Shown here: in pieces, positions 15,208-62,712 of the stretch
How the letters are laid out: the number at the start of each line of letters is the position of its first letter
How positions within the stretch are numbered: the stretch's first letter is position 1
NCBI GenBank assembly: GCA_949358305.1
Contig: OX442314.1
Span: 4,030,001 to 4,094,000, forward strand
Direction: 5' to 3'
From: Strigamia acuminata
Taxonomy: Eukaryota
DNA length: 64,000 nt
Made by a program: the position numbers and the translations under genes
The notes under the pieces: model-generated
Told to the model about the DNA's origin: nothing
What the model saw: only the letters and a program-made list of their open reading frames with translations
Database searches by the model: none

Positions 15208-15408
15208 AATCACGTGTGATACCAAAGTATTTAGTAACCGTTAGTAGCACTGTTACTGAAAGAGATTGACTCCATCACTTGATGGTGCCAAAGCAGTCTG
15301 CATGCAAAACATGCAGTTACCGCCAGTAGCACTATGTGTTTGGGAAAGTTATATCTCTTCGGTGATGGTGCCAAAGCAGTCTACTTATGAGTAGTATCTC
15401 AGGTGATT
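15208..15408 (+). ncRNA. Structured cis-acting RNA element in the LTR transcribed region (two-fold symmetric internal-loop hairpin)
   Basis: Two CAAAGCAGT / TWACCNYNAGTA internal loops with covarying stems relative to element C; copies at ~35598-35798 (+), 25205-25410 (-) and 32709-32914 (-). Confidence 0.65.
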
Positions 15409-16263: not shown

Positions 16264-16281
16264 TGGAGGTTCCACCGAGAT
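16264..16281 (+). promoter_or_regulatory. Primer binding site complementary to the tRNA-Gln 3' end
   Basis: TGGAGGTTCCACCGAGAT is the reverse complement of ATCTCGGTGGAACCTCCA, the metazoan tRNA-Gln 3' end; 2 nt after the LTR. Confidence 0.88.
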
Positions 16282-17071
16282 AGGTTGCAAAGTTTAAATT
16301 TACCGAATTTAAATAAAAGTGAAAATTGAGATAAATAAAGAGTATAACATTTCAAAACATTTTATATGTCTCTGCTTTTGCGAAGTAGGGAATCCTCTTT
16401 AAGAACGTTGGGATTCGTGAGAACTCTAACATTAAAGGGAAAGTTTCGTTGTGTTGAAAAAACACTTAAAATCGAAGTAAAATTAATTTTAATTTTCACG
16501 AAACAAGGCTTGGTAAAATTCCAATGTTAGTTGAATATTTTCGTAAGAAATATCCAATCAGTAACGAGATTGACCAGGCCAAAGTGCGGACGTAGTAGAA
16601 AACTACTAAAATAAAGGATTAGTTTCCATTTTATCATTGGATAAAATAACTTTCCACCGATAAAGTGTCGAGGGATTAAAGGATTATCGATCCTCGATGC
16701 CACGCGGATCCAGACTACAGACGACCATTCGTATCCAGACCAGACCTGCAGACACGTGCTCCAGTAGCCATCTTGACCACGCCGTCCCGTTCAGTCCCGA
16801 TTCGAATTTTCCACGCCGTAAACCAGCTAAAGTTAAGTGTATTTCACCTATTATTTTAATAAATAATTTAAAGCGCCTTCTCACCCGACGCTAGTTTACT
16901 TGTAGTAGGATTCATTTGATTGTTTAAAATTTATCGATAGTTTAACACGTTTAACCACCACGTGGAGTTTAAGCTTAACCTTATCGAAGTGTATTGTTAT
17001 TTTGAAGTGTATTTTTTTTATATAAAGTGTGTTATCGTTCTTTAGTAATAAAGAATTTAAAAACTTTTATC

Positions 17072-18665: not shown

Positions 18666-18690
18666 TAGAGGGGGTTACCGAAAACCCCCT
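18656..18690 (+). promoter_or_regulatory. -1 programmed ribosomal frameshift signal (gag-pol)
   Basis: A AAA AAC heptamer, 6-nt spacer, stem AGGGGGTT/AACCCCCT; the -1 frame is open into the pol ORF. Confidence 0.85.
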
Positions 18691-23023: not shown

Positions 23024-23610
23024 AAGATTCTAAATATAAAAAGAATATTCTAAAAGATATTGATTTAAATCAGATATTGAATATTCAAATCGAAAATTCG
23101 CGAAGTCACCTGGTAACTTATGACCCCGGGTGGAGAGTAAAAGATTCGTTCTATATTCAGTCTTCTAACACACACGTGAGAGAAGAAGAACTTCGTCGAA
23201 TTCAACAAAAATCACGAACAATTGCGTCGATATTGTTAGCCATTAAACAAAGAATACAGGTATGATGATTATACATATGAATTAATATATATATCATGAC
23301 ATCTCTTTATATTTAAAGAAATACAAACCAGCGGAATTCGTTTATTAGCGGCGGAGGATTTGAAAGCCACGTGCTCTAAACTCCAAGTTATCGTCGAAGC
23401 GACTATACTTAGAATTCTACAAGCTACGCTTCTAAAGGAAGCAGGACATTTTCGTAAGTTCGATAAAATTATCAATACACGAAAGTGTAAAGTTGTAACG
23501 AATTATAATTATAAAATTCGTAAATTGAGTTACGCGTCTTCTCAATAGAGGGCGCGCGCATACAAAAGTATTGCAAATAAAACTAAAACGTTTTCTATAT
23601 TTGTAGAATT

Positions 23611-34630: not shown

Positions 34631-34994
34631 GCGGTATTTCGAATTTAAACAATTAGCAGTTTGTTTGTGTGTTCTGTGATAAAAAGATATAATATGTAAC
34701 CGGAAAATTCTTTAATTAAGATTTTTGTAAGAAGTGCTTTTTCCGTTATACGAAAATGACTTCATGTTTATTGTTTTAATAATAACCAAATTATTTTTAT
34801 AACCGTCTCTAAAAAGAGAAAATAAAAACATTTTTGAGCATCCTAAGGATAAGAACATGTTTATTAAAAACACTCGTGGGCCTTATAAGTATTGGAAATA
34901 AAATATTTATTAATATGGATAAATTTGGCACAAATGATATTCCTAAAGAATAACATAAAATATAAGAGTATATGTTTAGTTATTAAGGGGGATG

Positions 34995-36648
34995 TGTGAC
35001 AAATTAGCAATAGATGGCGCCACTAGTACTAGCGGCAAATTCAACCTCGAGCTTACTATTTCCCATATAAATAGTTCACAAACATATTATTATGTTTGAT
35101 ACGACCAAATGTGATTCACATCGATAATATAAAGGTATATTATCAATACTTAAGAAGATAAAAATAGGCGTTACTGCTTTATCACCGATACATGACGAGG
35201 AACACGGTTTTGAATGTATTTCCGTTCTGTGTATCCATTTCCTGTCCCCGGTATCCAGTTCCGGTTTATGCTAAAAGATTAACATAATCCCAATTTGCAT
35301 CTCCGTATCCACTTCCTGCGATACGAGATTGGTGGAACCTAATCCCACCGAGTATAAAACTCCCTGACAACAGGAAGTTAAGTTAGTTCTTGATTTCTGG
35401 TTATTTGGTATGTTCCGCATGTCAAATAACTGTTTCTTACTCAGGGCATGGGCCTACCGGTCCATGCATAGCATGGCTCTGCTGAGCCATGCAACCCCCG
35501 TCAACTGAAGGCGAAGTTCGGACTGTTAATGTTTCCGTCAAACGGTCTTGCCGAGGAGAAAGCCTCCCGCATAAGTATCCTCGTGGTCGGACAATAGAAT
35601 CACGTGTGATACCAAAGTATTTAGTAACCGTTAGTAGCACTGTTACTGAAAGAGATTGACTCCATCACTTGATGGTGCCAAAGCAGTCTGCATGCAAAAC
35701 ATGCAGTTACCGCCAGTAGCACTATGTGTTTGGGAAAGTTATATCTCTTCAGTGATGGTGCCAAAGCAGTCTACTTATGAGTAGTATCTCAGGTGATTAA
35801 TTCTGTTGTGCAGAACTGCGGGCTATATCCCCCTGAATACCAGTGCCGTCTCTCACCGCACTGTTAGTTAGGGCACGCGCGATACTGTTCTGCTCAGCAA
35901 GGCGAACTTTGACGGCAATTGTGTGTTGCGATGTTTAACCTTTATATTTTGTAGTTGATAAATACACCTTAATTGTTTAAACTTGGCAACAAGTTAACAA
36001 CCGAAGTAAGTCACGAGACTTATTTCACTGTATGACGAATCAAATTCGTAACAATAAATTGAATACAATTTATTGAGTTAATTTATTAAACTCACAACAT
36101 CGCGAATTAAATATAATTCGCAAGCGGAACCTTGGCGAATAAATGACTTCATTTATTCATTACCAATTTCCAACCCTAGTTGTGGCGGTGCACATGAGTC
36201 AACCGCACCTCTCGGATCGAACCAAACAGCATTACACGGACCATTACACGATACGAACCAGGAACGTGAAGGAACCAGTTCCACGATTACGAAGCGCCGA
36301 CGGAAGCCGCGAGGACACAGCCAGCCCGGCTACGCGTAGATGACATCTTTTAACTCGGTCGAGCGGGCATTTTGCCGTTCCCGAACCCCGGATCACCAAT
36401 AACCGTAATCATATTATTTTAGGGCTGTTTTACAGCCAATTTCATGTATAGTTTAACTTGTATTTAACTTGCCAAATGTCGGCATTAGAATTTGTATAAC
36501 TTTTAGGATTGATTATATTGTTTAGTAACAATAAATGTCACGTTTTGAGAAACTCTGTTGTCTTTATTATCTCGTATTTTAATCACTTATTCACGCGACT
36601 TATACCCGGTACTATCATGCGATAGGAGTTGTGGTCGTCACCGTCACA
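34995..36648 (+). repeat. 3' LTR of element B (1654 bp; U3 differs from the 5' LTR)
   Basis: Preceded by the PPT; followed by TSD AGGT. Confidence 0.93.
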
Positions 36649-37970
36649 AGGTTTGTTGTTGTTGTTGTGTTCGGGTGGTTTACCGTCAGTGGGGGGAAGG
36701 TCCCAGGGCGCGTTCAATTCCTTCATGATGGGCGTGAGGTGGAAACGGTGTTTATCCATCAGTCGGGTCAAATCAGTTTTGTGCGCCAGTCGGAATTTGT
36801 TTTGCACGTAAATCTGGACGTGTGATTTGTAAGATGCACTCACGGGTCTGTCGTTGTTTTGGAAATAGTTTTCCGGGTCTGGAAACATCTCCAGAAACTC
36901 CTCGACGCTGAAGTCGCTGAAATTCATTAAAAAATCATGGAAAAAAATTAGGAATAATTATTGAAAAATCAGAAAACATTGTAAAAAAAATATAATGAAA
37001 AATCTTAAACAATCATAAAGAATCATGAAAAATCTTGAAAATCATTAAAAATCTTGAAAATCATGAAAAATCTTGAAAATCATGAAAAATCTTGAAAATC
37101 ATGAAAAAAATCTTGAAAATCATGAAAAATCTTGAAAATCAAGAATAATCATAAAAATCATGATAATCAATCATGGAAAATCATAAAAAAATCTTAAAAA
37201 ATCATGGAAAAAACAATGAAAAATCTTCTTTTTTTTTTTTAAAAAAATCTTTTAAAAAAAATAATTAAAAACCTTAAAAAATCATTAAAAAGCATCAAAA
37301 TACTTGTAAAAACCCTAAAATCTATTTAAAACAAAAAAATAAAAAATAAAAACCTTTCCATAAATTTCCGTTTGGTTTCCGCCTTTTGAGCTTCGGCCAA
37401 CTTGGGATAACTCCCACTCTCCAACCACCCGGAAACCGACGCATTCACGAAATTCACATCGCCCGTATTTGTCTCAATAAAACTCCGCAAATATTCTGGA
37501 TCGGCATCCGGAAACACTTCCAAAATCGACTTCACCGTATCCATCGTAATCGTCTTCACCATGTCCATCGAAATCGACACATCGTTCTCCACTTCGCCCG
37601 AAGTCGACGCGATCGGTCCCGACCCATTAATCCCATTAATCACATCGGTCCGGACGTCGTTCGCCACCGGAAACGGCGCCGGCCCGTCCATTCCAAGCAA
37701 CTCGCCGATCACGACGCGCACTCGGTCCGGATTTTCATGAAACGCCTCCAAATACGCGAGGATCTCCTCCCGGCTCGTATTCGGAACGTATTTCTCCACC
37801 ACGTCCACATCCTTCACCAATTCGTCGTATTTGTCCACTTTCTGCTCACACAGGATCTTCAACGGCGCTTCTTCGGCTTTCTGTGGCTGTTTCGCGCTCA
37901 AACGATCGATCACGACGCTTGTGTTGGCATTTTCATTCTCACTGTCAATTTCAATCAACTCGTACACTTC

Positions 37971-38327
37971 TGTGCCGGTATTTTTCATTGTCGGAAGTGG
38001 TTTAAGACGAGACTGATTGTTTAATATCTACATATATTATTGTACAAATTTTGTAATTAAGCCTAACATGAATTTTTAGCAAATCGAAATATGGACTTAC
38101 GGGAATTCTCACTTCTTCTATTCGCTTCGGAAATTGGACTCGATCATAACAACACGCGTGTTCAAAATGGGACTAATTGGATGACTTGTCCGAACTAGTT
38201 CTCCCTCGAGTTTTCCTGGTTCTCTTGGGACAACGCCATTGACCGGCAGTGGCCACTGTCAGAAGCTCTCGAAAGTTCTTCGGGGTTTTGGCATTATTGG
38301 GTTGTTGTAGCATTTATTACTGCCACA
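37971..38327 (-). mobile_element. Solo LTR at the 5' end of ligase copy 1
   Basis: TGTG...CCACA ends; flanks CTTC/GTTC; absent from copy 5. Confidence 0.75.
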
Positions 38328-39064: not shown

Positions 39065-41764
39065 TCACACGACGTTGGCGATGGCGTTGGCATTGACCAT
39101 CACTGGGAGTTGCTCGTTGACTCGTTGGAACACGATCAGTCCTTGCTCGTTCGGCCTGGGCACGGCGCCCTGCGCGTTCGGCCTGGGCACGGCGATAACG
39201 TTGACCGTCACTGGGGGCTGCTCATTGCCTTGTTGGAACACGATCAGGCCTTGCTCGTTCAGCCTGGGCATGGCGGCCCGCGCGTACTCCTGCTGCCTCC
39301 TCTGCACGGCCGCGAACGGAGTCTTACTCGGGTCGTTCTTCAGTTCCATCGCCTGCACTTCCGGGTGCGTCGCTACGTACTCTTGCTTCGCCTTCTTAGC
39401 GCCCTCCTGCACCTCCAGTCGATGCAGTTCATCGTCGTTCGACATTTGAGGACACCTGCGTTCAAATGCGATTAGTATGTACATTTAAAAATGCATTTTT
39501 TTTTGGCCTAAAATGAATCTTTTTTGGCCTAAAATGAATCTTTTTTGGCCTAAGATGAATTTTTTTTGGCCTAAAATGAATTTCTTGGCCTAAAAAGAAT
39601 TTTTTTGACCGAAAATTAAATTTTTTGGCTTAAAATGAATTTTTTTGACCTAAAATGAATTTTTAATCAACTCGCCTTCCATTCTGGAAATGCTTGTAGT
39701 CGGCGACGGGCTCGCGACACACGTAACAGAACGTCTGACCGCACGTGCACGTCATCATGTTGCACCCTTCCTCCTTGATGATGCGCCTCTTGCACCGCGG
39801 ACACGTGCGCAGCAGCGCCTCCGTCATCCGGTCCTCGATGTGCGTGCGAAACTGCATCTCGGCCTTCTTCTCGTCGCAGCTCAGCGGAATGTGGTTGGCT
39901 TCCTTGCAAAGCCTGCACGTGACTTTGAAACACTCGGGGTTGAGGCAGCTGAAGATCTTGACGTTCGCGTCCGGCATGATGCCGCAGAACGAGCAGTGCG
40001 GGCACGACTCGAGATCCGCGATGCCTGCGCGCCGGATCTCTTCCTCCTGCATCTTGCGCATCAGATTGGACAACACGTTGGGCGCTAAAACCTTCCGGAG
40101 CGTCGTCAGCGGGAACTCGGTCTCGCAGTACGCATCCAGGCACGGGAATTGGTATTTATCCTGGCCGATGCGCACCTCGGCCAGGTGCCGGATGCACGTT
40201 CTGCAGAACAAGTGGCCGTCCGAGCACTGCAGCATGTCCTCTAAGCGCAGTTCGTCCTCGAAACAGCAATCGCACGTCATCAGCTCGTCATTTTGCTTCG
40301 CCGTTGCGATTTTCCTCGTGTGTTCCGTTTCCTTGTCTGTTTTAAATTCTAAAAAATAAATATTGAAAAGAAAAATGAATTTTAGACGTGACGTGACGTG
40401 ACGGTTAATTACGTTTGATTCTGTCTTTCATTTCGATGTAGAGTTTTTCTTTGTAGAAGAGTACGTCGATTTCTTGCGGCATGCGTTCGAGGTCGCTCAT
40501 CGTCTTTTTTTTGCGCACGGTTTTCTTCCTTTTTTTGGTTGGTTTACCGTCGGTGGGGGAAAGGTTCTAGGGCGCGTTCAACTGGTTCATGATGGGCGTG
40601 AGGTGGAAATTGTGTTTGTTCATCAGTCGGGTCAAGTCGGCTTTGTGCGCATGTCGGAATTGATTTTGCACGTAAATCTGGACGTGTGATTTGTAAGATG
40701 CACTCACGGGTCTGTCGTTGTTTTGGAAATAGTTTTCCGGGTCTGGAAACATCTCCAGAAACTCCTCGACGCTGAAGTCGCTGCAATTTATTGGAAAATC
40801 ATGGAAAAAATCAGGAAAAATCAGGAAAAAAATGAAAAAATTCAGGAAAAAAATTATCTTGAAATTATGAAAAATCTTGGAAATCAAGAAAAATCTTGAA
40901 CATCATGAAAAATTTTGGAAATCATGAAAAATCTTGAAAATCATGAAAAATCATGAAAAATCTTGAAAATCATGAAAAATCATGAAAAATCTTGAAAATC
41001 ATGAAAAATTTTGAAAAATTTTGAAAAATCATGGAAAATCGTAAAAAATATATATTTATTTTTTAAAAAAACAATGAAAACCATTGAAAAGCTTTAAAAT
41101 ACTTGCAAAATCGTGACAAAACCCTGAAATCTATATATGGTAAAACAAAAAATAAAAACCTTTCCATAAATTTCCGTTTGGTCGCCGCCTTTTGAGCTTC
41201 GGCCAACTTAGGATAACTCCCACTCTCCAACCACCCGGAAACCGTCGCATTCACGAAATTAACATCGCCCGTGTTCGTCTCGATAAAACTCCGCAAATAT
41301 TCCGGATCCGCGTCCGGAAACACTTCCAAAATCGACTTCACCGAATCCACCGTAACCGACACACCGTTATTCACTTCAACCGAAGTCGACGCGATCGGTC
41401 CCGACCCATCAACCCCAACGATGCGGACGTCATTCGCCACCGGAAACGACGCCGTCCCGTCCATTCCACGCAACTCGCCGATCACGACGCGCACTCGGTC
41501 CGGATTCTCGTGCAACGCCTCCAAATACGCGAGGATCTCCTCCCGGCTCGTATTCGGAACGAATTTCTTCACCACGTCCACATCCTTCACCAATTCGTCG
41601 TATTTGTCCACTTTCTTCTCCCCCGGGATCTTCAACGGCGCTTCTTCGGCTTTCTTTAGCTGTTTGGCGTTCAAACGATCGATCACGATGCTCCTTCTCT
41701 TGGCATTTTCATTCTCAACGTCAATTTCAACCAACTCGCACACTTCTGTGGCGGGATTTGTCAT
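39065..41764 (-). pseudogene. RNF216-like RBR ligase copy 2 with a premature TAG at 40567-40569
   Basis: Same exon set; TGG (W) of the other copies is TAG; the RBR block 39676-40280 is intact. Confidence 0.8.
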
Positions 41765-42077
41765 TCTCGGAAGTGTATTAAAACCGAAACTGATTGTTTT
41801 TTTTATCTACAAATATTATTGTAAAAATTTTGAAATTAAACCTAACATTAGTGTGTTTGCCAATTTAACTTTTGGCAAATCGGAATATGGACTTACGGGA
41901 ATTAACACTTCTTCTATTCGCTTCGGAAAATGGACTCGATCGTAACAACACGCGAGGTCAAAATGGGACTAATTGGATGACTTGTCCGCACTAGTTCTCC
42001 TAGGATAGCGCCAATGACCCGGAGTGGCCACTGTCAGAAGCTTTCGAACTTTCTTCGGCGTCGTTTTGGCATTATTG
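41747..42077 (-). mobile_element. Truncated solo LTR at the 5' end of copy 2
   Basis: Homologous to 56635-56999; broken by a rearranged ligase exon fragment (42078-42178). Confidence 0.7.
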
Positions 42078-43574
42078 AGATCGTCAACGGCGCTTCTTCG
42101 GCTTTCTGTGGCTGTTTGGCGATCAAACGATCGATCACGATGCCCCTTGTGCTGGCATTTTTATTCTCACTGTCAATTTGGAATTTTGACAAAAGGCTTT
42201 TTAGTTTTTACTTACAAGTTAGCAAAATTCAAAATTGCCTGACAGTGATTCGATGCAGCGTCGCTCTGGTGGTAACAAATGTTATTAACTGTACGAGTGA
42301 TATCACGTTGATTACAACCAATAGCGATGTGTTTACCGTCGGCACAGCAACAGTCACGTGCTTGTGTTATTCATTCCATTTCGAGCTTCGTCGTTTGTTT
42401 TCGTCCGTTGTTTTCTCTCGGATTCCATTTTCGGTTGTTATTTTTCACAATTTCCATTACTACTGAACTGGATTAAGGTTGGTTTGGATCGGATGGTTCG
42501 ATTTTCGTGCTAGAATTGAATGAATTGAAAAAATGCAGCATTGAGCTTTGTTCAGTCTGTACACTTGTGGATAGGCTTATCACTTTGGATTCTATTTTAG
42601 GCCTAGTGTTAATTTGAATTGAAGTGAACAACATCATTATAAATAATTTTCAGTTCTAATCCATCTGCCCACCTCGCACAATTTGCTCACACTCTTTTCT
42701 TTTTCCTCTTTCTTTTACATTCTGTGGATTTGTGTTTAGAGGTTAGTCCTAACAAAATGTCTATCCAAATGGGTTTAAGCTTTTATTCTGTAGTTTTCCA
42801 TCCTGTTTGGCTTCTGTGAGGAAATTTCTTTTTCTTCCAAGTTGTACTTTACATCAGGCACATTTCATGACCAAAATGCTGAAGAATGTCAAGTGCGTTT
42901 ACTTGCATTGCCTGCTTCTTTGCCCTTTCTCTTCCTTTTGCTTTTTGCCCTTCACTCATTACTGAAACACTTTTCCTGTACATGAGAATGACCCATGTGA
43001 ATTTGGCATGACACCTTTCTCTTATTTTGGTTGATTGTACTGTTCCAGCTTGAATAATGTTATTGGTGCAACATACAGCTGAGGTGGAAATCTCAAGGTG
43101 GTGTTATCAGAAACAAATCTGTATTTATTAGACAAGGCTCTTCTATTTCCTTTGTAATGCTTTATACAAAAAGTTTACATTTCTGAATCTTAGAGAATAT
43201 TTCTTTGTTTCATTTTCTTTCTTGATAATTTGCTGTGCTCTTTTTCAACTTCTTTATTTCTCAGTCCTTACTCCAGACTCTTTTCTCTGATATGCTTTCA
43301 CTGCATGTTCATGGGTGACTTCTTTGAAGCCTTCCCTGATGGGTCGAAGCTTCTCTGGTGGAATTCCTTTCACTTCCATTTTAGAATGTAAAACATTCTT
43401 TTTAAAAAAAATTCTGGTTCAAAATATGCTCGCAAATAATTGCGAGTGTTAAAATATGCTCTTGCGAGTGTTGCAGAGTGTTGCAACTGTGTTGACCGCA
43501 GTCGACTAAAACCAAAAACTTTTCTCTACTAAGCTCGGCGAAATCCAAATGTAGTCGACTCTATGGACGCATTG

Positions 43575-49414: not shown

Positions 49415-52400
49415 CTACACATACGAATTTTCTACTTTTGCTTTCTTGCGAATCTTCCTCGCGGTCAGTGAAAATGACCACTTGTCCCCGCTAGTCCAAT
49501 CGTTACCTGTCAAACGGAATTTAAATTGATTTAAATTGAATATGAAACAACGAATATATATAAAATAGCATTCGTGCCTCGGCAGAGGTTGCATCGGTCG
49601 AGTCACGACGTTGGCAATGGCGTTGGCGATAGCGTGGGCATTGGCGATGATGTTGGTGAAGACGTTGGCGATGGGGTTGATCACTGGGGGCTGCTCGTCG
49701 ACTGGTTGGAACACGATCAGACCACGCTCGTTCAACATGGGCATGGCGCCCTGCTCGTTCAGCTGCTGCCTCCTCTGTACGGCCTCGAACGGCGACTTGC
49801 TCGGGTCGTGCTTCAGCTCCATCGCCTGTACTTCCGGGTGCGTGGCTACGTACTCTTGCTTCGCCTTCTTGGCGCCCTGCTGCACCTCCAGCCGATGCAG
49901 TTCATCGTCGTTCGAGAATTGAGGACATCTGCGTACAAATACAATTAGTATGTACATTAATGTCGAAAATTGGATGTTTTTGACCTAAAATTGAATTTTC
50001 TTGGCCTACAATTGAATTTTTTGGTCTTATATTGGATCTTTGGCCTAAAATTGAATTTATTTACCCTAAAATTAGATTTTTGGCCTAAAATAAGATTTTT
50101 GGCCTAAAATAAGATTTTTGGCCTAAAATTAGATTTTTGGCCTAAAATTAGATTTTTGGCCTAAAATTAGATTTTTGGCCTAAAATAAGATTTTTGGCCT
50201 AAAATTGATTTTTTTTAGCCTCAAATTAAATTTTTGTAGCTAAAAGAATGAATTTGTTGGCCTTAAATAAAGTTTTTGAGAGGTGTCCTATATAGACATG
50301 TCTTTTTCGCCTAGGTCATAATGCTTAATCAACTCGCCTTCCGTTCTCAAAATGCGTGTAGCTGACGATAGGTTCGCGACACACGTAGCAAAAGTGTTGG
50401 CCGCACGTGCACGTCATTTTGTTGCAGCCTTCCTCCTTGACGATGCGCCTCTTGCACCTCGGACACGCGCGCAACAGCGCCTCCGTCATCCGGTCCTCAA
50501 TGTACGTGCGGAACTGCACCTCGGACTTCTTCTCGTTCTCGTCGCAGCGCAGCGGAAGGTGGTTGGCTTCCTTGCAAAGCCTTTATCAAACAAAAATTTA
50601 AAAAAAAAAACATCTTTAGAAAAAATTTTATTTCTTTACCTGCAGGTGACTTTGAAACACTCGGGGTTGAGGCAGCGGAAGATCTTCACGTTCGCGTCCG
50701 GTATAATGGCGCAGAACGAGCAGTGCGGACACGACTCGAGGTCCGCGATGTCGGCGCGCCGGATCTCCTCGTCCTGCATCTTGCGCATCACGTTGGACAA
50801 CACGTTGGGCGCTAAAACCTTGCGCAGCGTCGTCAACGGGAACTCGGTCTCGCAGTACGCGTCCAGGCACGGGAATTGGTACTTGTCCTGGCCGATGAAC
50901 ACTTCGACCTGGCGCCGGATGCACGTTCCGCAGAACGAGTGTCCGACCGAGCACCGCAGCATGTCCTCCGCAAGCAGTTCGTCCTCGCAACAGCAATCGC
51001 ACGTCATTAGTTCGTCATTTTGTTTCGCCGTTGCGATTTTCCTCGTGCGTTCAGTTTCCTTGTCTGTTTTGAATTCTAAAAAATTAATATTTAAAAAAAA
51101 ATTAATTTTAGTCGTGACGTGACGTGACGGTTTATTACGTTTGACTCTGTCTTCCATTTCGATGTAGAGCTTTTCTTTGTAGAAGAGTTCGTCGACTTTC
51201 TTCGGCATGCGTTTGAGGTCGCTCATCGTCTTTTTTGTCCGCACGGATTCCTTCCTTTTTTTGGCTGATGGTTCTGCCAAGTTAGTCGAATTGTTGTTTT
51301 AGGTTTGTTGTTGTTTTTGTTTTGTTTGGGTGGTTTACCGCCGGTGGGGGGAACTTCCCAGGGCGCGTTCAACTCGTTCATGATGGGCGTGAGGTGGAAA
51401 CGTTGTTTCTCCATCACTCGGGTCAAATCCGCTTTGTGCGCCAGTCGGAATTGGTTTTGCACGTAAATCTGGACGTGTGATTTGTAAGATGCACTCACGG
51501 GTCTGTCGTTGTTTTGGAAATAGTTCTCCGGGTCTGGAAACATCTCCAGAAACTCCTCGACGCTGAAGTCGCTGAAATTCATTGAAAAATCATGGAAAAA
51601 AATTAGGAAAAATTGTTGAAAAGTCATGGAAAAAATTAGGAAAAATTATTGAAAAATCATGGAAAAAATTAGGAAAAATTGTTGAAAAATCATGGAAAAA
51701 AATTAGGAAAAATTATTGAAAAATCATGGAAAAAAATTAGGAAAAATAATTGAAAAATCATGGAAATAATTAGGAAAAATTATTGAAAAATCATGGAAAT
51801 AATTAGGAAAAATTATTGAAAAATCATGGAAAATAATAAAAATCTTGACAATCATGGAAATCCATAAAAAAAACTTGAAAAATCATGGAAATCTTGAATA
51901 ATCGTACAAAATCTTTTTAAAAAAAACTTTAAAAATCTTTATTTTAAAAAAAAATATTTTTAAAAAATAATTAAAACCCTTAAAAAATCATTAAAAGGCA
52001 TCAAAATACTTGTAAAAACCCTAAAATCTATTTAAAAAAATAAATAAATAAATAAAAACCTTTCCATAAATTTCCGTTTGGTCGCCGCCTTTTGAGCTTC
52101 GGCCAACTTAGGATAACTCCCACTCTCCAACCACCCGGAAACCGTCTCATTCACGAAATTCTCATCTCCCGTGTTTTCCTCGATGAAACTCCGCAAATAT
52201 TCCGGATCCGCGTCCGGAAACACTTCCAAAATCGACTTCACCGTATCCATCGTAATCGACACATCGTTATTCACTACGGCCGACGTCGACGCGATCGATC
52301 CCGACCCATTAATCGCATCTGACCGGAAGTCATTCGCCACCGGAAGCGGCGCCGTCCCGTCCATTCCAAGCAACTCGCCGATCACGACGCGCACCCGGTC

Positions 52401-52664
52401 CGGATTCTCATGAAACGCCTCCAAATACGCGAGGATCTCCTCCCGGCTCGTATTCGGAACGAATTCTTTCACCACGTCCACATCCTTCACCAATTCGTCG
52501 TATTTGTCCACTTTCTGCTCACACAGGATCTTCAACGGCGCTTCTTCGGCTTTCTGTGGCTTCTTCGCGCTCAAACGATCGATCACAATGCCCCTTGTGT
52601 TGGCATTTTCATTCTCACTGTCAATTTTAACCAACTCGTAAACTTCTGTGCCGGTATTTTTCAT
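49415..52664 (-). CDS. RNF216-like RBR E3 ligase copy 3 (apparently intact, multi-exon)
   Basis: All exons are joinable by GT/GC-AG introns; RING1-IBR-RING2 with the GCNKM catalytic Cys motif. Confidence 0.82.
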
Positions 52665-52992
52665 TGTCGGAAATGGTTTAAAGACGAGACTGATTATTTA
52701 ATATCTACATATATTATTGTAAAAATTTTGTAATTAAACCTAACATGAACTTTTGGCAAATCGGAATATGGACTTACGGGAATTATCACTTCTTCTATTC
52801 GCTTCGAAAATTGGACTCGATCATAACAACACGCGTGGTCAAAATGGGACTAATTGCATGACTTGTCCGGGCTGGTTCTCCCGGTTCTCCTGGGACAACG
52901 CCATTGACCGGCAGTGGCCACTGTCAGAAGCTCTCGAAAGTTCTTCGTGGTTTGGGCATTATTGGGTTGTTGTGGCATTTATTACTGCCACA
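52647..52992 (-). mobile_element. Solo LTR at the 5' end of copy 3
   Basis: TGTG...CCACA; flanks CTTC/CTTG. Confidence 0.75.
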
Positions 52993-53712: not shown

Positions 53713-56652
53713 TCACACAACGTTGGCGATGGCGTTGGCGTTGACGATCACTGGGGGTTGCTCGTTGACTCGTTGGAACACGATCAGTCCTTGCGCGTTC
53801 GGCCTGGGCACGGCACCCTGCGCGTTGGGCCTGGCCACGGCGCCCTGCGCGTTCGGCATTGGCACGGCGCCCTGCGCGTTCGGCCTGGCCACGGCGCCCT
53901 GCGCGTTCGGCCTGGGCCCATTGATTTGTTGGAACACGATCAGTCCTTGCTCGTTCAGCCTGGGCATGGCGGCCCGGGCGTACTCCTGCTGCCTCCTCTG
54001 CACGGCCGGGAACGGCGCCTTGCTCGGGTCGTTCTTCAGCTCCATCGCCTGCACTTCCGGGTGCGTCGCTACGTACTCTTGCTTCGCCTTCTTGGCGCCC
54101 TCCTGCACCTCCAGCCGATGCAGTTCATCGTCGTTCGACAATTGAGGACACCTGCGTTCAAATGCGATTAGTATGTACATTTAAAAGTGCATTTTTTTGG
54201 CCTAAAATGAATTTTTTTCGCCTAAAATGAATTTTTTTGGCCTAAAATAAATTTGTTTGACCTAAAATGAATTTCTTTTAGCCTAAAATAAATTTCTTTT
54301 GGCCTAAAATAAATTTCTTTTGGCTTAAAATGAATTTTTTTTGGCCTAAAATAAATTTGTTTGACCTAAAATGAATTTCTTTTGGCCTAAAATTAATTTT
54401 TTTGCCTAAAATTAATTTTTAATCAACTCGCCTTCCATTCTGGAAATGCGCGTAGTTGGCGATGGGCTCGCGACACACGTAGCAGAACGTCTGACCGCAC
54501 GTGCACGTCATCATGTTGCAGCCTTCCTCCTTGACGATGCGCCTCTTGCACCGCGGACACGTGCGCAGCAGCGCCTCCGTCATCCGGTCCTCGATGTGCG
54601 AGCGAAACTGCATCTCGGCCTTCTTCTCCTCGCAGCTCAGCGGAACATGGTTGGCTTCCTTGCAAAGCCTGCACGTGACTTTGAAACACTCGGGGTTGAG
54701 GCAGCAGAAAATCTTCACGTTCGCGTCCGGCATGATGGCGCAGAACGAGCAATGCGGGCACGACTCGAGGTCCGCGATGCCGGCGTGCCGGATCTCCTCC
54801 TCTTGCATCTTGCGCATCAGATTGGACAACACGTTGGGCGCTAAAACCTCGCGCAGCGTCGTCAACGGGAACTCGGTCTCGCAGTACGCGTCCAAGCACG
54901 GGAATTGGTACTTGTCCTGGCCAATGCGCACCTCGGCCAGGTGCCGGATGCACGTTCTGCAGAACAAGTGTCCGTCAGAGCATTGCAGCATGTCCTCTAG
55001 ACGCAGTTCGTCTTCGAAACAGCAGTCGCACGTCATCAGTTCGTCATTTTGTTTCGCCATTGCGAATTTCCTCGTCCGTTCCGTTTCCTTGTCTGTTTTG
55101 AATTCTAAAAAATAAATATCGAAAAAAAAAATTAATTTTAGTCGTGACGTGACGTGACGTGACGTGTCGGTTTATTACGTTTGATTCTGTCCTTCATTTC
55201 GACGAAGAGTTTTTCTTTGTAGAAGAGTAAGTCGATTTCTTTGGGCATGGGTTCGAGGTCGGTCATCGTCTTTTTTTTGCGCACGGTTATCTTTCTTTTT
55301 TTGGATGGATTACCCGTGGACGAATAAGGTTTATTCGTCCAAGGATTACCGTCGGTGGGGGGAAGGTTCCAGGGCGCGTTCAACTGGTTCATGATGGGCG
55401 TGAGGTGGAAATTGTGTTTAATCATCAGTCGGGTCAAATCGGCTTTGTGCGCCAGTGGGAATTGGTTTTGCAGGTAAATCTGGACGTGTAATTTGTAATT
55501 CGCACTCATGGGTCTGTCGTTGTTTTCGAAATAGTTCTCCGCGTCTGGAAACATCTCGAGAAACTCCTCGACGCTGAAGTCGCTGAAATTCATCGGAAAA
55601 TCATGGAAATAATCAGGAAAAATCAGAAAAAAATCGTGAAAAATCAGATGAAAAAATTCTTAATTTCTAAAAAAATATAATGAAAAATCGTGAAAATCAT
55701 GAAAAATCTTGAAAATTTTAAAAATCTTGAAAATTTTAAAAATCTTCAAAATTAAGAAAAATCTTGAAAATCAAGAAAAATCTTGAAAATTAAGAAAAAT
55801 CTTGAAAATCTTGAAAATCAAGAAAAATCTTGAAAACCATGAAAATTCTTGAAAATCATAAAAAATCATGAAAATTCTTGAAAATCATAAAAATCTTGAA
55901 AAATCGTAAAAAAAAAAAAAATTTTTTTTAAAAAAACAATGACAAATCTTGTTTAAAAAAAATTAAGAATAAATGAAAAATCATTAAAAAGCTTGAAAAT
56001 ACTTATAAAATCGTGACAAAACCCTAAAATCTATATAAAACAATAAAAACCTTTCTATTAATTTCCGTGTAGTCGCCGCCTTTTGAGCTTCGGCCAACTT
56101 CGGATATTTCCCACTCTCCAACCACCCGGAAACCGTCACATTCACGAAATTAACATCGCCCGTGTTCGTCTCGATGAAACTCCGCAAATATTCCGGATCC
56201 GCGTCCGGAAACACTTCCAAAATCGACTTCACTGAATCCATCGTAACCGACACACCGCCCGAAGTCGACGCGATCGGTCCCGACTCATTAATCTCATTAA
56301 TCGCACCCGTCCGGACGCCATTCGCTACCGGAAACGGCGCCGGCCCGACCATTCCACGCAACTCGCCGATCACGACGCGCACCCGGTCCGGATTCTCGTG
56401 CAGCGCCTCGAAATACGCGAGGATCTCCTCCCGGCTCGTATTCGGAACGAATTTCTTCACCACGTCCACATCCTTCACCAATTCGTCGTATTTGTCCACT
56501 TTCTTCTCCCCCAGGATCGTCAACGGCGCTTCTTCGGCTTTCTTCAGCTTTTTGGCGTTCAAACGATCGATCACGATGCTCCTTCTCTTGGCATTTTTAT
56601 TCTCAACGTCAATTTCAATCAATTCGTACACTTCTGTGGCGGGATTTGTCAT
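53713..56652 (-). CDS. RNF216-like RBR E3 ligase copy 4 (apparently intact)
   Basis: RBR block 54432-55060 with GCNMM; C-terminal RPNAQGAV repeats. Confidence 0.82.
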
Positions 56653-56999
56653 TCTCGGAAGTGTATTAAATACGAGACTGATTGTTGAATATCTACAAAT
56701 AATATTGCAAAAAATTTGTAATTAAGCCTAACATGAACTTTTGGCAAATCGGAATACGGACTTACGGGAATTAGCACTTCTTCTATTCGCTTCGGAAAAA
56801 GGACTCGATCGTACAACACGCGTGGTCAAAATGTGACCTATTGGCTGACTTGTGCGAACTTGTAGCCTTGGCCACAGTCTATACTGTGGCCTTGGCTTGG
56901 AACAACGCCATTGACCGGCAGTGGCCACTGTCAGAAGCTCTCGAAATATCTTTGGGGTTTTGGTATTATTGGGTTGTTGTGGCATTTATCACTGCCACA
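56635..56999 (-). mobile_element. Solo LTR (365 bp) at the 5' end of copy 4
   Basis: TGTGGC...GCCACA inverted termini; perfect TSD CTTC at 56631-56634 and 57000-57003. Confidence 0.82.
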
Positions 57000-57866
57000 C
57001 TTCGTTCAGATCCACCACGTCATCCGGATGCGGCTCTCGAGGCGTCTCGGTGATCGGATTCACTTCCTACACACAAATTAAATACATTTTAATGTCGAAT
57101 TTAATGTTTTTGAGGCTTAGATTTAGAAAATAAAAGCCGTGGATTTGGGATGAGGTTTAAATTGCGCGCGCAATGAAGCGCCGTTGCATGTTTTGTAAAG
57201 ACAAAATGAAATGCCGCCGCCATTTTATTTTAACATTTGAGCTTGTTACCAATTTAAATTTAAATTTTCTAAACAAAAAGCTTGTCTTTTCAATGTGAAA
57301 ACTCATCAAAAGAATCGTTAAAAGAATCATCCTCTTGTTCGTAGTCTTGTTCTTGTTGTTCATCACCTGGTGGCGATAATTAAAATGAATACTATTTACA
57401 CCGGATCACGGTAAACAGCAGCAGACACGAATGTGACTGATCGCAGCTTTTCAATACATCAAAAAAAAGCAAAAGCACCTGTTTATTCATTATGGTTTTT
57501 CCTCATTTAGCGATAAATTGATAACAAAAATTAAACGTTGATATTCGGCATTGCGAAGACGAATTCAGTCAAATTTCAAACCGGCAATTTATTCGCATTT
57601 GATAAAAAAAAAATGAATTAAAATAAAAAAAAAAAAATTGATTTAGAAAAATAAAAAATGCCCGCTTTATGTACACATATACAATGACTAATCACAAAAA
57701 TAATAAACAATAAATAATGAACAATATGAATTTTAAGCTTTTGCTTTCTTGCCAATCTTCCTCGCTCGTGGTCAGTTGTCTCCGCTAGTCCAATCGTTAC
57801 CTGTCAAACAAAATTTAAATTAATTTAAATTGAATATATAAAAAATAGCTTTACTTTGCGTGACGA

Positions 57867-60800
57867 TCACCAGTTCCAGCGCCTCGGCGCAGGTTGCATC
57901 GGTGGAGTCACGACGTTGACGTTGGCGTAGGCGTTGGCGTTGGCGTAGGCGTTGGCGTTGACGTTGACCGTCACTGGGGGCTGCTCATTGACTTGTTGGA
58001 ACACGATCAGTCCTTGCTCGTTCAGCCTGGGCATGGCGGCCCGCGCGTACTCCTGCTGCCTCCTCTGCACGGCCGCGAACGGCGTCTTACTCGGGTCGTT
58101 CTTCAGCTCCATCGCCTGCACTTCCGGGTGCGTCGCTACGTACTCTTGCTTGGCCTTCTTAGCGCCCTCCTGCACCTCCAGTCGATGCAGTTCATCGTCG
58201 TTCGAGAATTGAGGACACCTGCGTTCGAATGCGATTAGTATGTACATTTATGTCGAAAATTGAATTTTTAAAAAATTGAATTTTTTGCCCTAAAATTAAA
58301 TTTTTTTGGCTTAAAATTGAATTTTTTTGGCTTAAAATTGAATTTTTTGACTAAAATTGAATTCTTTTGGTTTAAAATTGAATTCTTTTAGCCTGAAAAT
58401 TTAAAAAATGAATTTTGGCCTAAAAATTAAAAAAATAAATTTTAGCCGAAAAATTTAAAAAATGAATTTTGGCCTAAAAATTTAAAAAAAGAATTTTGGT
58501 CTAAAAATTAAAAAAATTAATTTTGGCCTAAAAATTAAAAAAATTAATTTTGGCTTAAAAATTTAAAAAATGAATTTTGGCCTAAAAATTTAAAAAAAGA
58601 ATTTTGGCCTAAAAATTTAAAAAATGAATTTTGGCCTAAAAATTTAAAAAATGAATTTTGGCCTAAAAATTTAAAAAATGAATTTTGGCCTAAAAATTTA
58701 AAAAATAAATTTTGTCCTAAAAATTTTAAAAATGAATTTTGGCCTAAAAATTTAAAAAATACATTTTGACCTAAAAATTTAAAAAATGAATCTTTATGGC
58801 ATAAAAATGAATTTTATGGCATAAAAAATGAATTTTATGGCATAAGAAATGAATTTTTTGCCCTAGACATTTGTCTTTTTTGCCTAGGTCATAACGCTTA
58901 ATCAACTCGCCTTCCATTCTCGAAATGCTTGTAGTCGGCGATGGGCTCGCGACAAACATAGCAGAAGTATTGGCCGCACGTGCACGTCATCTTGTTGCAG
59001 CCTTCCTCCTTGACGATGCGCCTCTTGCACCGCGGACACGTGCGCAGCAGTGCCTCCGTCATGCGGTCCTCAATGTGCGTGCGGAACTTCACCTCGTCTT
59101 TCTGCTCGATCTCGTCACAGCGCAACGGGAGGTGGTTGGCTTCCTTGCAAAGCCTGATTAACGATAAAATTTAAATTAAAACCATTTCCCATTTCCTTTC
59201 GTCACAACCTGCACGTGACTTTGAGACACTCGGGGTTGAGGCACCGGAAGATCTTCACGTTCGCGTCCGGCATGATGGCGCAAAACGAGCAATGCGGGCA
59301 CGACTCGAGGTCCGCGATGTCCGCGCGCCGAATTTCTTCCTCCTGCATCTTACGCATCACGTTGGACAACACGTTTGGCGCTAAAACCTCGCGCAGCGTC
59401 GTCAGCGGGAACTCCGTCTCGCAGTACGCGTCCAGGCACGGGAATTGGTATTTATCCTGGCCGATGTGCACCTCGGCCTGGCGCCGGATGCACGTTTTGC
59501 AGAACAAGTGTCCGAACGAGCACTGCAGCATGTCCTCCGCAAGCACTTCGTCCTCGAAACAGCAGTCGCACGTCATCAGCTCGTGTTTTTGCTTCGCCAT
59601 TGCGATTTTCCTCGTCCGTTCCGTTTCCTTGTCTGTTTTGAATTCTAAAAAATAAATATTGAAAAAAAAATTAATTTTAGACGTGACGTGACGTGACGTG
59701 ACGGTTTATTACGTTTGATTCTGTCCTCCATTTCGATGAAGAGCTTTTCTTTGTAGAAGAGTTCGTCGATTTCCTGCGGCATGCGTTTGATTGAGCTTCT
59801 GTTTTTCTTTATACGGAGCGTTTCCCTTCTTTTCTTGATTAGTGGTTCTGCGGGTTTGTGTTATTTTGTGTTTAATTGTTTTTATATTGCGTGATTATTA
59901 ATTTACCGTCGTTGGGAGAGACGTTCCAGAGCGCGTTCAATTCGTTCATGATGGGCGTGAGGTGGAAACGGTGTTTCTCCATCACTTGAGTCAAATCGGC
60001 TTTGTATGCCAGTCGGAACTGGTTTTCCACGAAAATCTGGACGTGTGATTTGTAAGGTGCACTCACGGGTCTGTCGTTGTTTTGGAAATAGTTCTCCGGG
60101 TCGGGAAACATCTCCAGAAACTCCTCGACGCTGAAGTCGCTGAAATTCAAAGAAAAACCATTGACAATTCTTGAAAAATGTTTTTCAAAAATAATGAAAA
60201 AACTTTTTCAAAAATGAAAAATGAAAAATGAAAAATGAAAAATGTTGAAATTCATGAAAAATGTTAAAATTTATGAAAAATCTTTAAAATCATGATAAAT
60301 CTTGAAAAAATCATGAAAAATCTAGAAAAATCATCGAAAATCGTAAAAAAAATTAAAAATACAATTTTTTTTAATAGATTTTAAATCTATTTAAAAAAAA
60401 TAAAAAAATTTTTTTTAAATAAATTTGAAAAATCATTAAAAAGTATGAAAATACTTGTAAAATCATAACAAAACCCTAAAATCTACATAAAACAAAATAA
60501 AAATAAAAAACCTTTCCACAAATTTCCGTTTGGTCGCCGCCTTTTGAGCTTCGGCCAACTTCGGATAACCGCCACTCTCCAACCACCCGGAAACCGTCTC
60601 ATTCACGAAATTCACATCATCCACGTATTTCTCAGTAAAACTCCGCAAAAATTCCGGATCCGCGTCCGGAAACACTTCCAAAATCGCCTTCACCGTATCC
60701 ACCGTAATCGCCACACCGTCATCCACTTCGGCCGAAGTCGACGCGATCGGTCCCGACCCATCAACCCCATCGATCCGGACGTCATTCGCCACCGGAAACG

Positions 60801-61291
60801 GCGCCGTCCCGTCCATTCCGAGCAACTCTCCGACGACGATGCGCACTCGGTCCGGATTCTCATGAAACGCCTCCAAATACGCGAGGATCTCCTCCCGGCT
60901 CGTATTCGGAACGAATTTCTTCACCACGTCCACTTCCTTCACCAATTCGTCGTATTTGTCCACTTTCTCCTCCCCCGGGATCTCCAACGGCGCTTCTTCC
61001 GCTTTCTGCGGCATTTTAGCGATCAAACGATCAATCACGACGTTCCGTCTGTTGGCATTTTCATTCTCCGTTTCAACCAACTCGTAAACTTCGTTGGGAT
61101 CCACCGCGTAGTCCGGATACAGCTGTCGAAGCGTCTCGATGACCGAATTCACTTCCTACACACAAATTGTAATTAGTCTTTAACGTTTTAGAACGTAAAA
61201 AGTGAATTAATACCTTCAATTTACGATTAAATTCCTCCGGAGCGTTATTTTCTTCATGTTGTGGGTTGTTTAAAAATTCTGCTTTTTTCAT
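57867..61291 (-). CDS. RNF216: RNF216/TRIAD3-like RBR E3 ligase copy 5 (ancestral-type structure)
   Basis: Own ATG exon 61291-61214, uninterrupted exon 2 (EVNSVIETLRQLYPDY...), all introns present, complete RBR. The symbol reflects family resemblance, not proven orthology. Confidence 0.8.
58260..58860. repeat. Intronic ~20-29 bp degenerate minisatellite (gaattttggcctaaaa...)
   Basis: Variable-length array inside the GC-AG intron of every ligase copy. Confidence 0.85.
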
Positions 61292-61769
61292 CGTTGTTTT
61301 TATTATTAAATGACGAATTCGATGTTTTTGGCGATCGCTACGTGTTGACGTTCATGACGGCTCAACTAAGTGAAAATAATGGAAAAATAAGACGTGTTCG
61401 GGCATGAATTACTCATAAATACCTGAATGTTTGCTGAGACAGATTTCCAGCTGTGAAATATGACGGTGACAAACGAGACAATCACGCCAAACGTTTGCTG
61501 GAAGAATTGGCAATCGGCTTTTAGGCTTAGATTTTGGAAAATAAAAGCCCTGCCCTGGCTTTAGGGATGAGGTTTAAATTGCGCGCGCAACGAAGCGCCG
61601 TTGCATGTTTTTTAAAGACAAAATGTAATGCCATTATCATTGTTTTATTTCTTAAATTGTAAATTTATTATTATTACTATTATTATTCATGAAATGGTTT
61701 AAATAATTGATTCTAAAATAATATTTGATGATTTTTAACATAATACGGCGCTACTTGGTGCAATCCAAA

Positions 61770-62712
61770 ATGGCGATGTTGTTGTGGTCGAGTACGAGAA
61801 GATCGGTATTGAATGGTATGAAATATCAAATCTGTCGTGATTTTCTGAGTATCGGACAAAGAGGACTGCATATTACAGCTCCGAATTGCGTAAAAGAAAG
61901 TAAATTATAATATGGGTGGAGTTTTTAAAGGTTATAAAACAATTTTTTGTCTCGTTTAATTTCAGTCAGAGAAACCCGCGACGGCAAAACGACGACGATC
62001 GAAGGAGTAATCAAAGAATCGACTAGAAAACCGCATTTAATTCAAGTTGATAATCCCCACAACGCATGTCCGCTGTGCAGACTGGGATTAACAAACATCA
62101 AATACACAGTAATTGATTTTTAACGTGAAAAACGAGTGTTTTTAATTGGTTAAATATTGAATTTGTAGGATGTGCTCATAATAGCCCAATTCGTGCAGTC
62201 GGACGGTGAAATAATGCCACAAGCAGCGACTCAACTGTGCGATTCGAGTTACGTTCAAATGATCCAATTAGTGGACGAAGCGAACAAAGCGGGTAATTTT
62301 AATTTTATGCGGCTTAAATTGAACAAGCATCGATGTTTTGCCGTTTAAATTGTATAAACATTCATTTCTTCAAGTGAAATTGAACCAAAATCCATTTTAT
62401 TCGTATAAATTGAATAAACATCGATGTTTTGCGGTTTAAATTGACTAAACATTGATGTTTTGCCGTTAAAATTGAATAAAATCCATTTTTTTTCGTAAAA
62501 TTAAACAAAAATGCATTTTATTTAAAGGTTTGTTGTGGACTAAACGACCGGCGCCTTGGAACACCGAGTTGATGGGCTGGGAGAAGTGCAACACGTACTT
62601 CGAAAGCGAACGAGAAGTGAAAATGAAGGAGAGGGCGCGCAGAGAGCACGTTTCTTATTACTACGAGAAAGCGCCGAAAACCAAGAGATTCACGCTACAA
62701 GACATCTTGTGA
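61770..62712 (+). CDS. mRpS18A: Mitochondrial ribosomal protein S18a (mL66); exons 61770-61899, 61966-62108, 62169-62292, 62528-62712
   Basis: The spliced product has a transit-like N-terminus, DGKTTTIEG, CPLCR, KYTDVLIIAQFV..DGEIMP...TQLC and AGLL. Confidence 0.87.

What the first reader, a model, noticed from the sequence alone, without database searches (positions are those of the whole stretch)
56631..57003. Solo LTR provides the start codon, spliced 5'UTR and probable promoter of the duplicated RBR ligases
Seen: copy 5 has an uninterrupted exon (...cccaacGAAGtttacgag...). Copies 1-4 carry a ~350-365 bp TGTGGC...GCCACA insert at exactly that GAAG, with a 4-bp TSD (perfect in copy 4). In gene orientation the insert holds a CCAAT, a GTAAGT...TTTGTAG intron and, 18 nt from its end, an ATG in frame with the ligase (MTNPAT/MKNTGT-EVYEL). 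No AATAAA is seen near its 3' end (aatacac in copy 4). Copies 1, 3 and 4 have also deleted the ancestral ATG exon (61214-61291) and ~200 bp upstream of it. Inference: LTR exaptation freed the duplicates from the promoter region shared with mRpS18A and preceded the array expansion.
Basis: partly seen in the sequence, partly recalled or inferred. Interest (0 to 1): 0.8.

Follow-up and report, generated by a model that had tools for sequence, protein, structure and literature searches.

The report
Retrotransposon end starts duplicated ubiquitin ligases
A short retrotransposon end jumped into a duplicated ubiquitin-ligase gene of a probable centipede, broke its old reading frame and likely gave it a new start codon before the gene was copied further; whether it is also the promoter is untested.

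Summary
Real, and mostly as described. Five tandem RNF216/TRIAD3-like RBR ligase genes (best hit centipede Strigamia) lie head-to-head with a mitochondrial S18 gene. Copies 1-4 carry one ~350-bp insert at a GAAG that is empty in copy 5. Its TGTGGC…GCCACA ends and 4-bp target duplication match the three intact LTR elements in the window. The insert stops the old frame within four codons; its ATG, 18 nt from the end, opens full ORFs in copies 3 and 4 (721, 705 aa). Coding sequence among copies 1-4 shows purifying selection (dN/dS 0.27-0.53), while the exon piece upstream of the insert has lost coding constraint. Corrections: copy 2's insert is 5'-truncated and the gene has a stop; copy 1 is split by two young retrotransposons; copies 1, 3 and 4 keep ~110-130 bp of the region shared with the S18 gene. 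No RNA data and no parent element were obtained, so promoter, splicing and orientation stay inferred. New: a very young LTR in copy 1 again puts its own ATG in frame with the RING1 domain. A known kind of LTR co-option, in an unusual form and host.

The parts
56635..56999 (-). LTR-type insert, copy 4 (365 bp, TGTGGC...GCCACA)
56631..56634 (-). downstream 4-bp target-site duplicate GAAG, coding (copy 4)
57000..57003 (-). upstream 4-bp target-site duplicate GAAG (copy 4)
56650..56652 (-). insert ATG, 18 nt from the insert end, in frame with the ligase (MTNPAT)
56693..56765 (-). predicted 73-nt intron inside the insert (GTAAGT...TTTGTAG), 30% GC against 48% upstream
   Evidence: splicing not shown
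53713..56652 (-). copy 4 RBR ligase gene, intact 705-aa ORF (exons 56652-56051, 55582-55179, 55104-54432, 54151-53713)
57004..57066 (-). orphaned 5' piece of old exon 2, copy 4; 10 of 22 codons changed against copy 5
57088..57215 (-). retained host upstream DNA, copy 4 (copy of 61519-61632 at 88% plus a 25-bp island of 61306-61330)
52647..52992 (-). insert, copy 3 (346 bp; ATG 52664; intron 52777-52705)
49415..52664 (-). copy 3 RBR ligase gene, intact 721-aa ORF
41747..42078 (-). insert, copy 2, 5'-truncated (ATG 41764; intron 41896-41807)
39065..41764 (-). copy 2 RBR gene with a premature TAG at 40569-40567
37971..38327 (-). insert, copy 1 (357 bp; ATG 37988; intron 38100-38028)
4008..37988 (-). 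copy 1 RBR gene, exons free of stops and frameshifts but split by LTR elements A (exon) and B (intron)
57867..61291 (-). copy 5, insert-free RNF216-like gene, 706 aa; ATG exon 61291-61214; empty target site 61092-61089
5478..14125 (-). young LTR element A in an exon of copy 1 (1552-bp LTRs, identical; duplicate AAGG); its ATG at 5513 is in frame with RING1
14379..36648 (+). Gypsy-type element B in an intron of copy 1 (gag, RT-RNase H-integrase), with element C (24410-33814, identical 1901-bp LTRs) nested in it
61292..61770 (.). intergenic region shared head-to-head by copy 5 and the ribosomal S18 gene

Best explanation
A ~360-bp retrotransposon LTR inserted into exon 2 of a freshly duplicated RNF216-like ubiquitin-ligase gene, stopped the old reading frame, and likely supplies the new start codon through an ATG 18 nt from its end. 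Shown by sequence: one insertion at one site, old frame broken, old ATG exon deleted in copies 1, 3 and 4, full ORFs from the insert ATG, later expansion to two lineages (1/3 and 2/4), purifying selection among the copies. Inferred: the ATG worked at once, so the gene never went through a dead phase and the old first exon was lost afterwards; the product swaps 48 N-terminal residues for 7 (six from the insert plus the duplicated-site Glu) and would lose the first of three predicted three-helix bundles. Transcription most likely starts inside the LTR (about 55%), possibly helped by the retained host block; a start in the retained host DNA is about 35%.
For: End signature shared with 3 of 3 intact LTR elements in the window, each with a 4-bp duplicate. 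First stop at codon 26 of the old exon-2 frame in copies 1, 3, 4. Intact 721- and 705-aa ORFs with all splice sites. dN/dS in the 6 pairs among copies 1-4 is 0.27-0.53, every bootstrap upper limit at most 0.73; RBR part 0.11-0.36. Changes at 0-fold against 4-fold non-CpG sites 121/918 against 30/119, p=0.0013; transversions 74/1109 against 29/212, p=0.0011. A neutral 630-codon ORF stays stop-free in 6%, 3.8%, 0.8% and 0% of 600 runs at 0.04, 0.05, 0.08 and 0.10 substitutions per site. Upstream of the insert 10-12 of 22 codons differ in amino acid from copy 5, downstream 15-19 of 91-92 (p=0.0004-0.027 in copies 1, 3, 4). The last insert exon has 1-3-nt indels before the ATG and none after. LTRs A and C also carry an open ATG 36 and 27 nt from their ends, and A has put it in frame with RING1 of copy 1. 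A leader starting upstream of the insert would hold 3-5 upstream ATGs.
Against: No RNA or protein evidence from this species: no sequencing reads could be examined, and no near-identical protein came up. No parent element or second locus: none in the window by blastn; the 5 metagenome hits are 19-24-bp chance matches; 0 in viral contigs. Selection on the stretch from the insert to the next Met (residue 101) is not significant alone (16/135 against 3/17, p=0.45), nor for copies 3 and 4 alone (84/909 against 15/112, p=0.17). An in-frame ATG is easy to get by chance, as the unselected element A shows. No TATA box, CCAAT absent in copy 3, no part of the insert clearly better conserved than the rest. 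Orientation is unresolved: interior alignments lean sense, but the copy-4 gene-5' end matches the reverse U5 end of B and C (0 of 150 shuffles). The exon remnant differs at only 2-3 of 67 sites among copies 1, 3, 4, and copy 2, which lost the host block, is the one with a stop.
Confidence: 0.7

Rival explanations
1. The insert gives the start codon, but transcription starts in the retained host block upstream (a remnant of the promoter shared with the S18 gene); the LTR is only 5'UTR.
For: 110-130 bp of the shared region kept at 84-88%. Exon remnant 3-4.5% divergent among copies against synonymous 16-22% (Poisson p 0.001-0.006). Copy 2 lost this block and has a stop. No TATA in the insert. S. 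maritima methylates 76% of annotated TEs and high upstream methylation goes with low expression (PMC7343188, passages).
Against: Against the ~8% divergence of other non-coding DNA the remnant is not unusual (p=0.22). The 190 bp nearest the old ATG, with 3 Inr-like words, was deleted. The leader would be 322-341 nt from the remnant onwards with 3-5 upstream ATGs.
Confidence: 0.3
2. The insert is not an LTR but a small non-autonomous DNA transposon (Ginger-like MITE), or a captured piece of another gene's 5' end.
For: No internal domain, primer site or second copy was found. Ginger elements also have TGTNR ends and 4-bp duplicates (PMC2836005, passages). The S. maritima paralogue T1J9K2 has MTNPTTDLYE, the only 5-of-6 match among 3168 Met positions in 165 relatives.
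Against: Terminal inverted repeat is 6 bp (10-12 matches in the first 30), like LTRs A-C, not the 40-270 bp of Ginger; the target GAAG is neither CCGG/CCGT nor RTATAY. In T1J9K2 the motif sits one domain further on, and T1J9J9 has PTT at the same place, which points to host origin and coincidence.
Confidence: 0.12
3. Copies 1-4 are decaying pseudogenes; the ATG and intron motifs are by-products of LTR sequence.
For: Two of four copies are broken; further degenerate fragments at 42079-42179 and 46114-46297; element A shows an in-frame ATG with no time for selection; copies 3 and 4 alone do not reach significance in the site-class test.
Against: Purifying selection among copies 1-4; one stop and no frameshift over four lineages against at most 6% stop-free survival per lineage; both breaks in copy 1 are recent (LTR pair of A identical).
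Confidence: 0.08

Closest known systems
Rodent ERVL/MaLR solo LTRs as gene-remodelling platforms (D6Ertd527e, Dicer1-O; PMC5538554, PMC9733328)
   Same: A solo LTR gives the 5' end and an AUG to a host ORF; the Dicer1 case yields an N-terminally truncated protein (passages and section 4 read; abstract).
   Different: Those LTRs carry a splice donor but no acceptor and splice into host exons. Here the LTR sits inside a coding exon, holds a whole predicted intron, and reads across its own end and the target duplicate without splicing. It replaces the only start codon and founds a gene array. Promoter activity is proven there, untested here.
Animal Metaviridae (Gypsy) LTRs, incl. elements A, B, C of this window
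   Same: TG...CA with a ~7-bp inverted repeat (PMC3601003, passages), 4-bp duplicate, hexamer one transition from TGTGAC...GTCACA; A and C have an open terminal ATG, A a GTAAGT about 150 nt from its end.
   Different: 365 bp against 1552-1901 bp; no AATAAA near the 3' end and no TATA; no blastn similarity, only weak alignment scores.
RNF216/TRIAD3-like RBR E3 ligases (S. maritima T1J958)
   Same: 70% identity over the RBR region, 58-63% over the whole protein; IBR domain; cysteine pattern intact.
   Different: Five-copy tandem array; four copies start with an LTR-derived hexapeptide and would lack the first predicted helix bundle.
TRIMs such as animal Helenus (PMC10886601)
   Same: Small size, 4-bp duplicates, solo LTRs occur (passages).
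   Different: No pair of LTRs, primer site or polypurine tract inside the insert by eye; no Rfam match in 56550-57300.

Membership tests
solo LTR (Gypsy-type) | TG...CA ends with a short inverted repeat | tested here: met
   6-bp perfect repeat in copy 4; one mismatch in copies 1, 3
solo LTR (Gypsy-type) | 4-6-bp target-site duplication with an empty site in a homologue | tested here: met
   GAAG twice in copy 4, once in copy 5
solo LTR (Gypsy-type) | homology to the LTR of a full-length element, or dispersed copies | tested here: inconclusive
   no genome held; none in the window by blastn; weak scores against LTR B; collection scans empty or chance
solo LTR (Gypsy-type) | AATAAA polyadenylation signal towards the 3' end | tested here: not met
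   no AATAAA near the gene-sense 3' end; ATTAAA at the predicted exon start in copies 1 and 3 only; none near the antisense 3' end. Could have decayed or been selected against.
LTR co-opted as promoter/first exon | transcripts start inside the LTR | not tested
   no sequencing reads were examined
LTR co-opted as promoter/first exon | LTR-derived AUG in frame with a selected host ORF | tested here: met
   use in translation is inferred
LTR co-opted as promoter/first exon | splicing of the LTR-derived leader | tested here: inconclusive
   sites kept in 4 of 4 copies, host-like length and AT content; no junction reads
Ginger DNA transposon / MITE | terminal inverted repeats of 40-270 bp | tested here: not met
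   6 bp
Ginger DNA transposon / MITE | target CCGG/CCGT (Ginger1) or RTATAY (Ginger2) | tested here: not met
   target is GAAG
TRIM | two LTRs around a primer site and polypurine tract | tested here: not met
   one self-hit only in blastn; no such parts seen in the printed inserts
RNF216/TRIAD3-like RBR ligase | RING1-IBR-RING2 with best hits in the RNF216 family | tested here: met
   IBR above Pfam cut-off; named hits RNF216/TRIAD3
UBA/CUE domain (first bundle, cut by the insert) | three-helix bundle matching solved UBA/CUE folds | tested here: inconclusive
   bundle 2-47 predicted with pLDDT about 90; UBA/CUE rows match bundle 2 at Z up to 5.5, rmsd 1.8, 43 aligned, a middling score; atlas lead CUE 36% of members at 0.77

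The most novel reading that the evidence does not exclude
This centipede LTR lineage carries a ready-made gene start (promoter, a complete leader intron and an ATG open to the LTR end), so a sense insertion into an exon creates a truncated working gene one time in three. It happened once to found a selected subfamily of RBR ligases lacking the first ubiquitin-binding-like bundle, and it has just happened again in copy 1, where element A would drive a bare RING1-IBR-RING2 ligase.
Probability: 0.25. Interest if true: 0.75.

Novelty: new variant of a known kind. Interest (0 to 1): 0.55.

Why it matters
LTR-supplied promoters and start codons are documented mainly in mammals; my seven searches (listings only) showed no myriapod case and nothing on centipede RNF216. 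Here an exon insertion that should kill a gene appears to have rescued itself, and the window holds the empty ancestral copy, four dated descendants, an internal control for lost constraint and a second, very young event of the same shape. It is a compact test bed for how a duplicate leaves a head-to-head promoter shared with a housekeeping gene and changes its N-terminus in one step.

Tried and rejected
Whole insert spliced out as an introner-type intron: worked out by hand from the junctions; none of the four GT/AG pairs at the ends restores the frame. CpG decay as a proxy for an unmethylated promoter: the insert shows none (0 of 15 CpGs in 1/3, 4 of 18 in 3/4), but TE controls show little too, so uninformative. 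CpG-inflated dS: CpG transitions are not raised in the coding sequence. Relatives of the insert: one 19-mer in metagenome contigs gave 5 chance loci, two motifs in viral contigs gave 0. Homology to LTRs A-C: 48 local and 36 end-anchored tests on non-independent copies, best z about 4, pointing both ways. Protein from this species in databases: none. Foldseek on the N-terminal model: no match at E<=0.001. First against later helix bundles by BLASTP: no similarity. Rfam: nothing. Earlier scan findings: none. The neighbour was confirmed as an S18-family gene; the subtype S18A was not tested.
Full report
Setting. No genome is held for this window, so everything rests on the 64 kb itself and on public protein sets. 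The repeated gene is an RBR E3 ligase: IBR above the Pfam cut-off, best hit Strigamia maritima T1J958 at 70% over the RBR region and 58-63% over whole proteins, named hits RNF216/TRIAD3. The host is therefore probably a centipede (inference). Copy 5 lies head-to-head with a ribosomal S18-family gene.

The observation. Copy 5 has an unbroken exon with the site CCCAAC-GAAG-TTTACG. Copy 4 has 365 bp (56635-56999) between two GAAG, with ends TGTGGC and GCCACA. Copies 1 and 3 have the same insert at the same site with one change in the upstream duplicate and GGCACA at the 3' end; copy 2 has lost about 27 nt of the 5' end and everything upstream. All four keep GTAAGT...TGTAG and an ATG 18 nt from the end. 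The CCAAT is GCAAT in copy 3 and no copy has a TATA box. Copies 1, 3 and 4 lack the old ATG exon through two deletions but keep 110-130 bp of the intergenic DNA shared with the S18 gene at 84-88% identity.

What the insert is. The window holds three LTR elements with both ends intact: A (5478-14125), B (14379-36648, with gag and RT-RNase H-integrase) and C (24410-33814). All have TGTGAC...GTCACA ends and 4-bp duplicates. Of 336 end-motif pairs in the window, 5 have an exact 4-bp flank repeat: A, B, C, the copy-4 insert, and one cross pair between copies 2 and 4. That is the main evidence for an LTR. Ginger transposons share TGTNR ends and 4-bp duplicates but have 40-270-bp inverted repeats and other targets (PMC2836005, passages); LTR inverted repeats extend about 7 bp (PMC3601003, passages), as here. 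Direct homology is not shown: no blastn hit outside the four copies. Local alignments to LTR B score above shuffles in gene-sense orientation at both ends (0-14 of 400 shuffles as good, against 15-357 antisense; 48 tests, copies not independent), but end-anchored tests match the gene-5' end both to U3 starts (z 1.6-4.0) and to the reverse U5 end of B and C (z 1.2-4.3). Sense orientation is likely, not settled. Scans of outside collections gave only chance matches.

Are the copies genes? Gene models from the insert ATG give open frames of 721 aa (copy 3) and 705 aa (copy 4) with all splice sites; copy 2 has one TAG; the exons of copy 1 are clean but A sits in an exon and B in an intron. The old frame stops at the fourth codon inside the insert, so the start is the insert ATG or Met101. 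Among copies 1-4, all 6 pairwise dN/dS values are 0.27-0.53 (upper limits at most 0.73), 0.11-0.36 in the RBR part. Counting only changes that arose within copies 1-4, 0-fold sites change half as often as 4-fold sites (121/918 against 30/119, p=0.0013; transversions 74/1109 against 29/212, p=0.0011). Columns with gaps and sites where no copy shared the copy-5 base were left out. A neutral ORF of this length survives without a stop in at most 6% of 600 runs (indels not modelled). Against: the test is not significant for copies 3 and 4 alone (p=0.17) or for the stretch up to Met101 alone (p=0.45). For the insert ATG over Met101: that stretch has no stop or frameshift in 4 of 4 copies and differs from copy 5 at 15-19 of 91-92 codons, while the orphaned exon piece just upstream differs at 10-12 of 22, several to proline (p=0.0004-0.027). 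Constraint thus switches on at the insert.

History. The coding tree is (5,((2,4),(1,3))), bootstrap 100 on both pairs, and 13|24 is the commonest split in 9 of 11 bins; downstream flanks of copies 1 and 3 also match. One insertion therefore came before a split into two lineages and a doubling of the pair. Insertion first and loss of the old exon second is the simpler order, since the downstream frame never decayed (inference). Non-tree patterns in copy 2's insert suggest unequal crossing-over or conversion.

Intron and promoter. The predicted intron is 73 nt (90 in copy 2 through an internal insertion), 25-30% GC against 46-48% upstream, within the 55-74 nt of the short host introns. The same motif pair occurs in 57 of 2422 overlapping control stretches. 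It is probably real but unseen. For a start inside the LTR: the DNA nearest the old ATG is deleted, and a leader from upstream would hold 3-5 upstream ATGs. For a start in host DNA: the retained block, the low divergence of the exon remnant (2-3 of 67; p 0.001-0.006 against synonymous sites but 0.22 against other non-coding DNA), the stop in the one copy that lost the block, and heavy TE methylation in S. maritima (PMC7343188, passages). No part of the insert stands out as conserved (12-28% variable columns outside the hypervariable middle). No reads were examined, so this stays open; I put 55% on the LTR and 35% on the host block.

A second event. LTRs A and C have an ATG open to the LTR end, 36 and 27 nt from it; B does not. 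Element A, whose LTRs are identical over 1552 bp, has landed in an exon of copy 1 with that ATG in frame: MANKSAKSRIVT-KETERTRK into RING1. It also has a GTAAGT about 150 nt from its end. This cuts both ways: an in-frame ATG needs no selection, but the lineage seems pre-fitted to give genes a new start.

Effect on the protein. A model of copy-5 exon 2 (mean pLDDT 82) has three helix bundles, 2-47, 67-111 and 146-194. The insertion falls at residue 22/23, so the duplicates would lose the first helix of bundle 1. Bundles 2 and 3 have weak UBA/CUE matches (Z up to 5.5; Pfam CUE E=0.0025, below cut-off); for bundle 1 there is only a lead. Loss of a ubiquitin-binding module is a guess.

Comparison. 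It works like rodent ERVL/MaLR co-option, where solo LTRs give promoter, 5' exon and AUG (PMC5538554, passages and section 4; PMC9733328, abstract); TE-derived promoters are also common in zebrafish (PMC9341505, abstract and introduction). It differs in lying inside a coding exon, holding a whole predicted intron (ERVL LTRs have no acceptor), reading out through the LTR end, and founding an array. Listings of seven searches showed no myriapod case; the library lacks most subscription papers, and no supplements were read. Earlier scan notes returned nothing.

Verdict. Observation largely right; start-codon donation about 70%; promoter open; a new variant of a known kind, interest 0.55.

Noticed in passing
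window 5478-7029 / 5513: Very young LTR element A (identical LTRs) inserted in an exon of copy 1 puts its own ATG in frame with RING1-IBR-RING2: a second event of the same shape.
   Followed up: partly
window 58910, 54431, 50337, 39675, 4749 (minus strand): All five copies have a GC-AG intron (donor GCGAGT) just after RING2.
   Followed up: partly
window 54669 and 39913; 55350 and 40548: Copies 2 and 4 have lost one intron precisely and another imprecisely but in frame, both at short microhomologies.
   Followed up: partly
window 14379-36648: Gypsy-type element B with nested element C; A, B and C share a primer site beginning TGGAGGT (tRNA-Gln-like, recalled) and long 1.5-1.9-kb LTRs; A and C show only a gag-like ORF and no pol.
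   Followed up: partly
window 42079-42179 and 46114-46297: Two further degenerate fragments of the ligase exon 2, so the array once had more copies.
   Followed up: no
P0004 (S. maritima T1J9K2) residues 76-85: MTNPTTDLYE resembles the insert-derived MTNPATEVYE; probably coincidence because T1J9J9 shares PTT at the same place.
   Followed up: partly
LTRs A, B, C (positions 36-53, 230-250, 248-265): Each has a CCACNAGRTGGCGC-like word resembling a CTCF site (motif recalled, not tested; sequences).
   Followed up: no
window 55620-55930, 58260-58830, 63324-63968 and others: Long introns are filled with copy-specific AT-rich minisatellites of 9-41 bp.
   Followed up: no
window 886-1236: Exon of a degenerin/pickpocket-type channel gene (Pfam ASC).
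   Followed up: no
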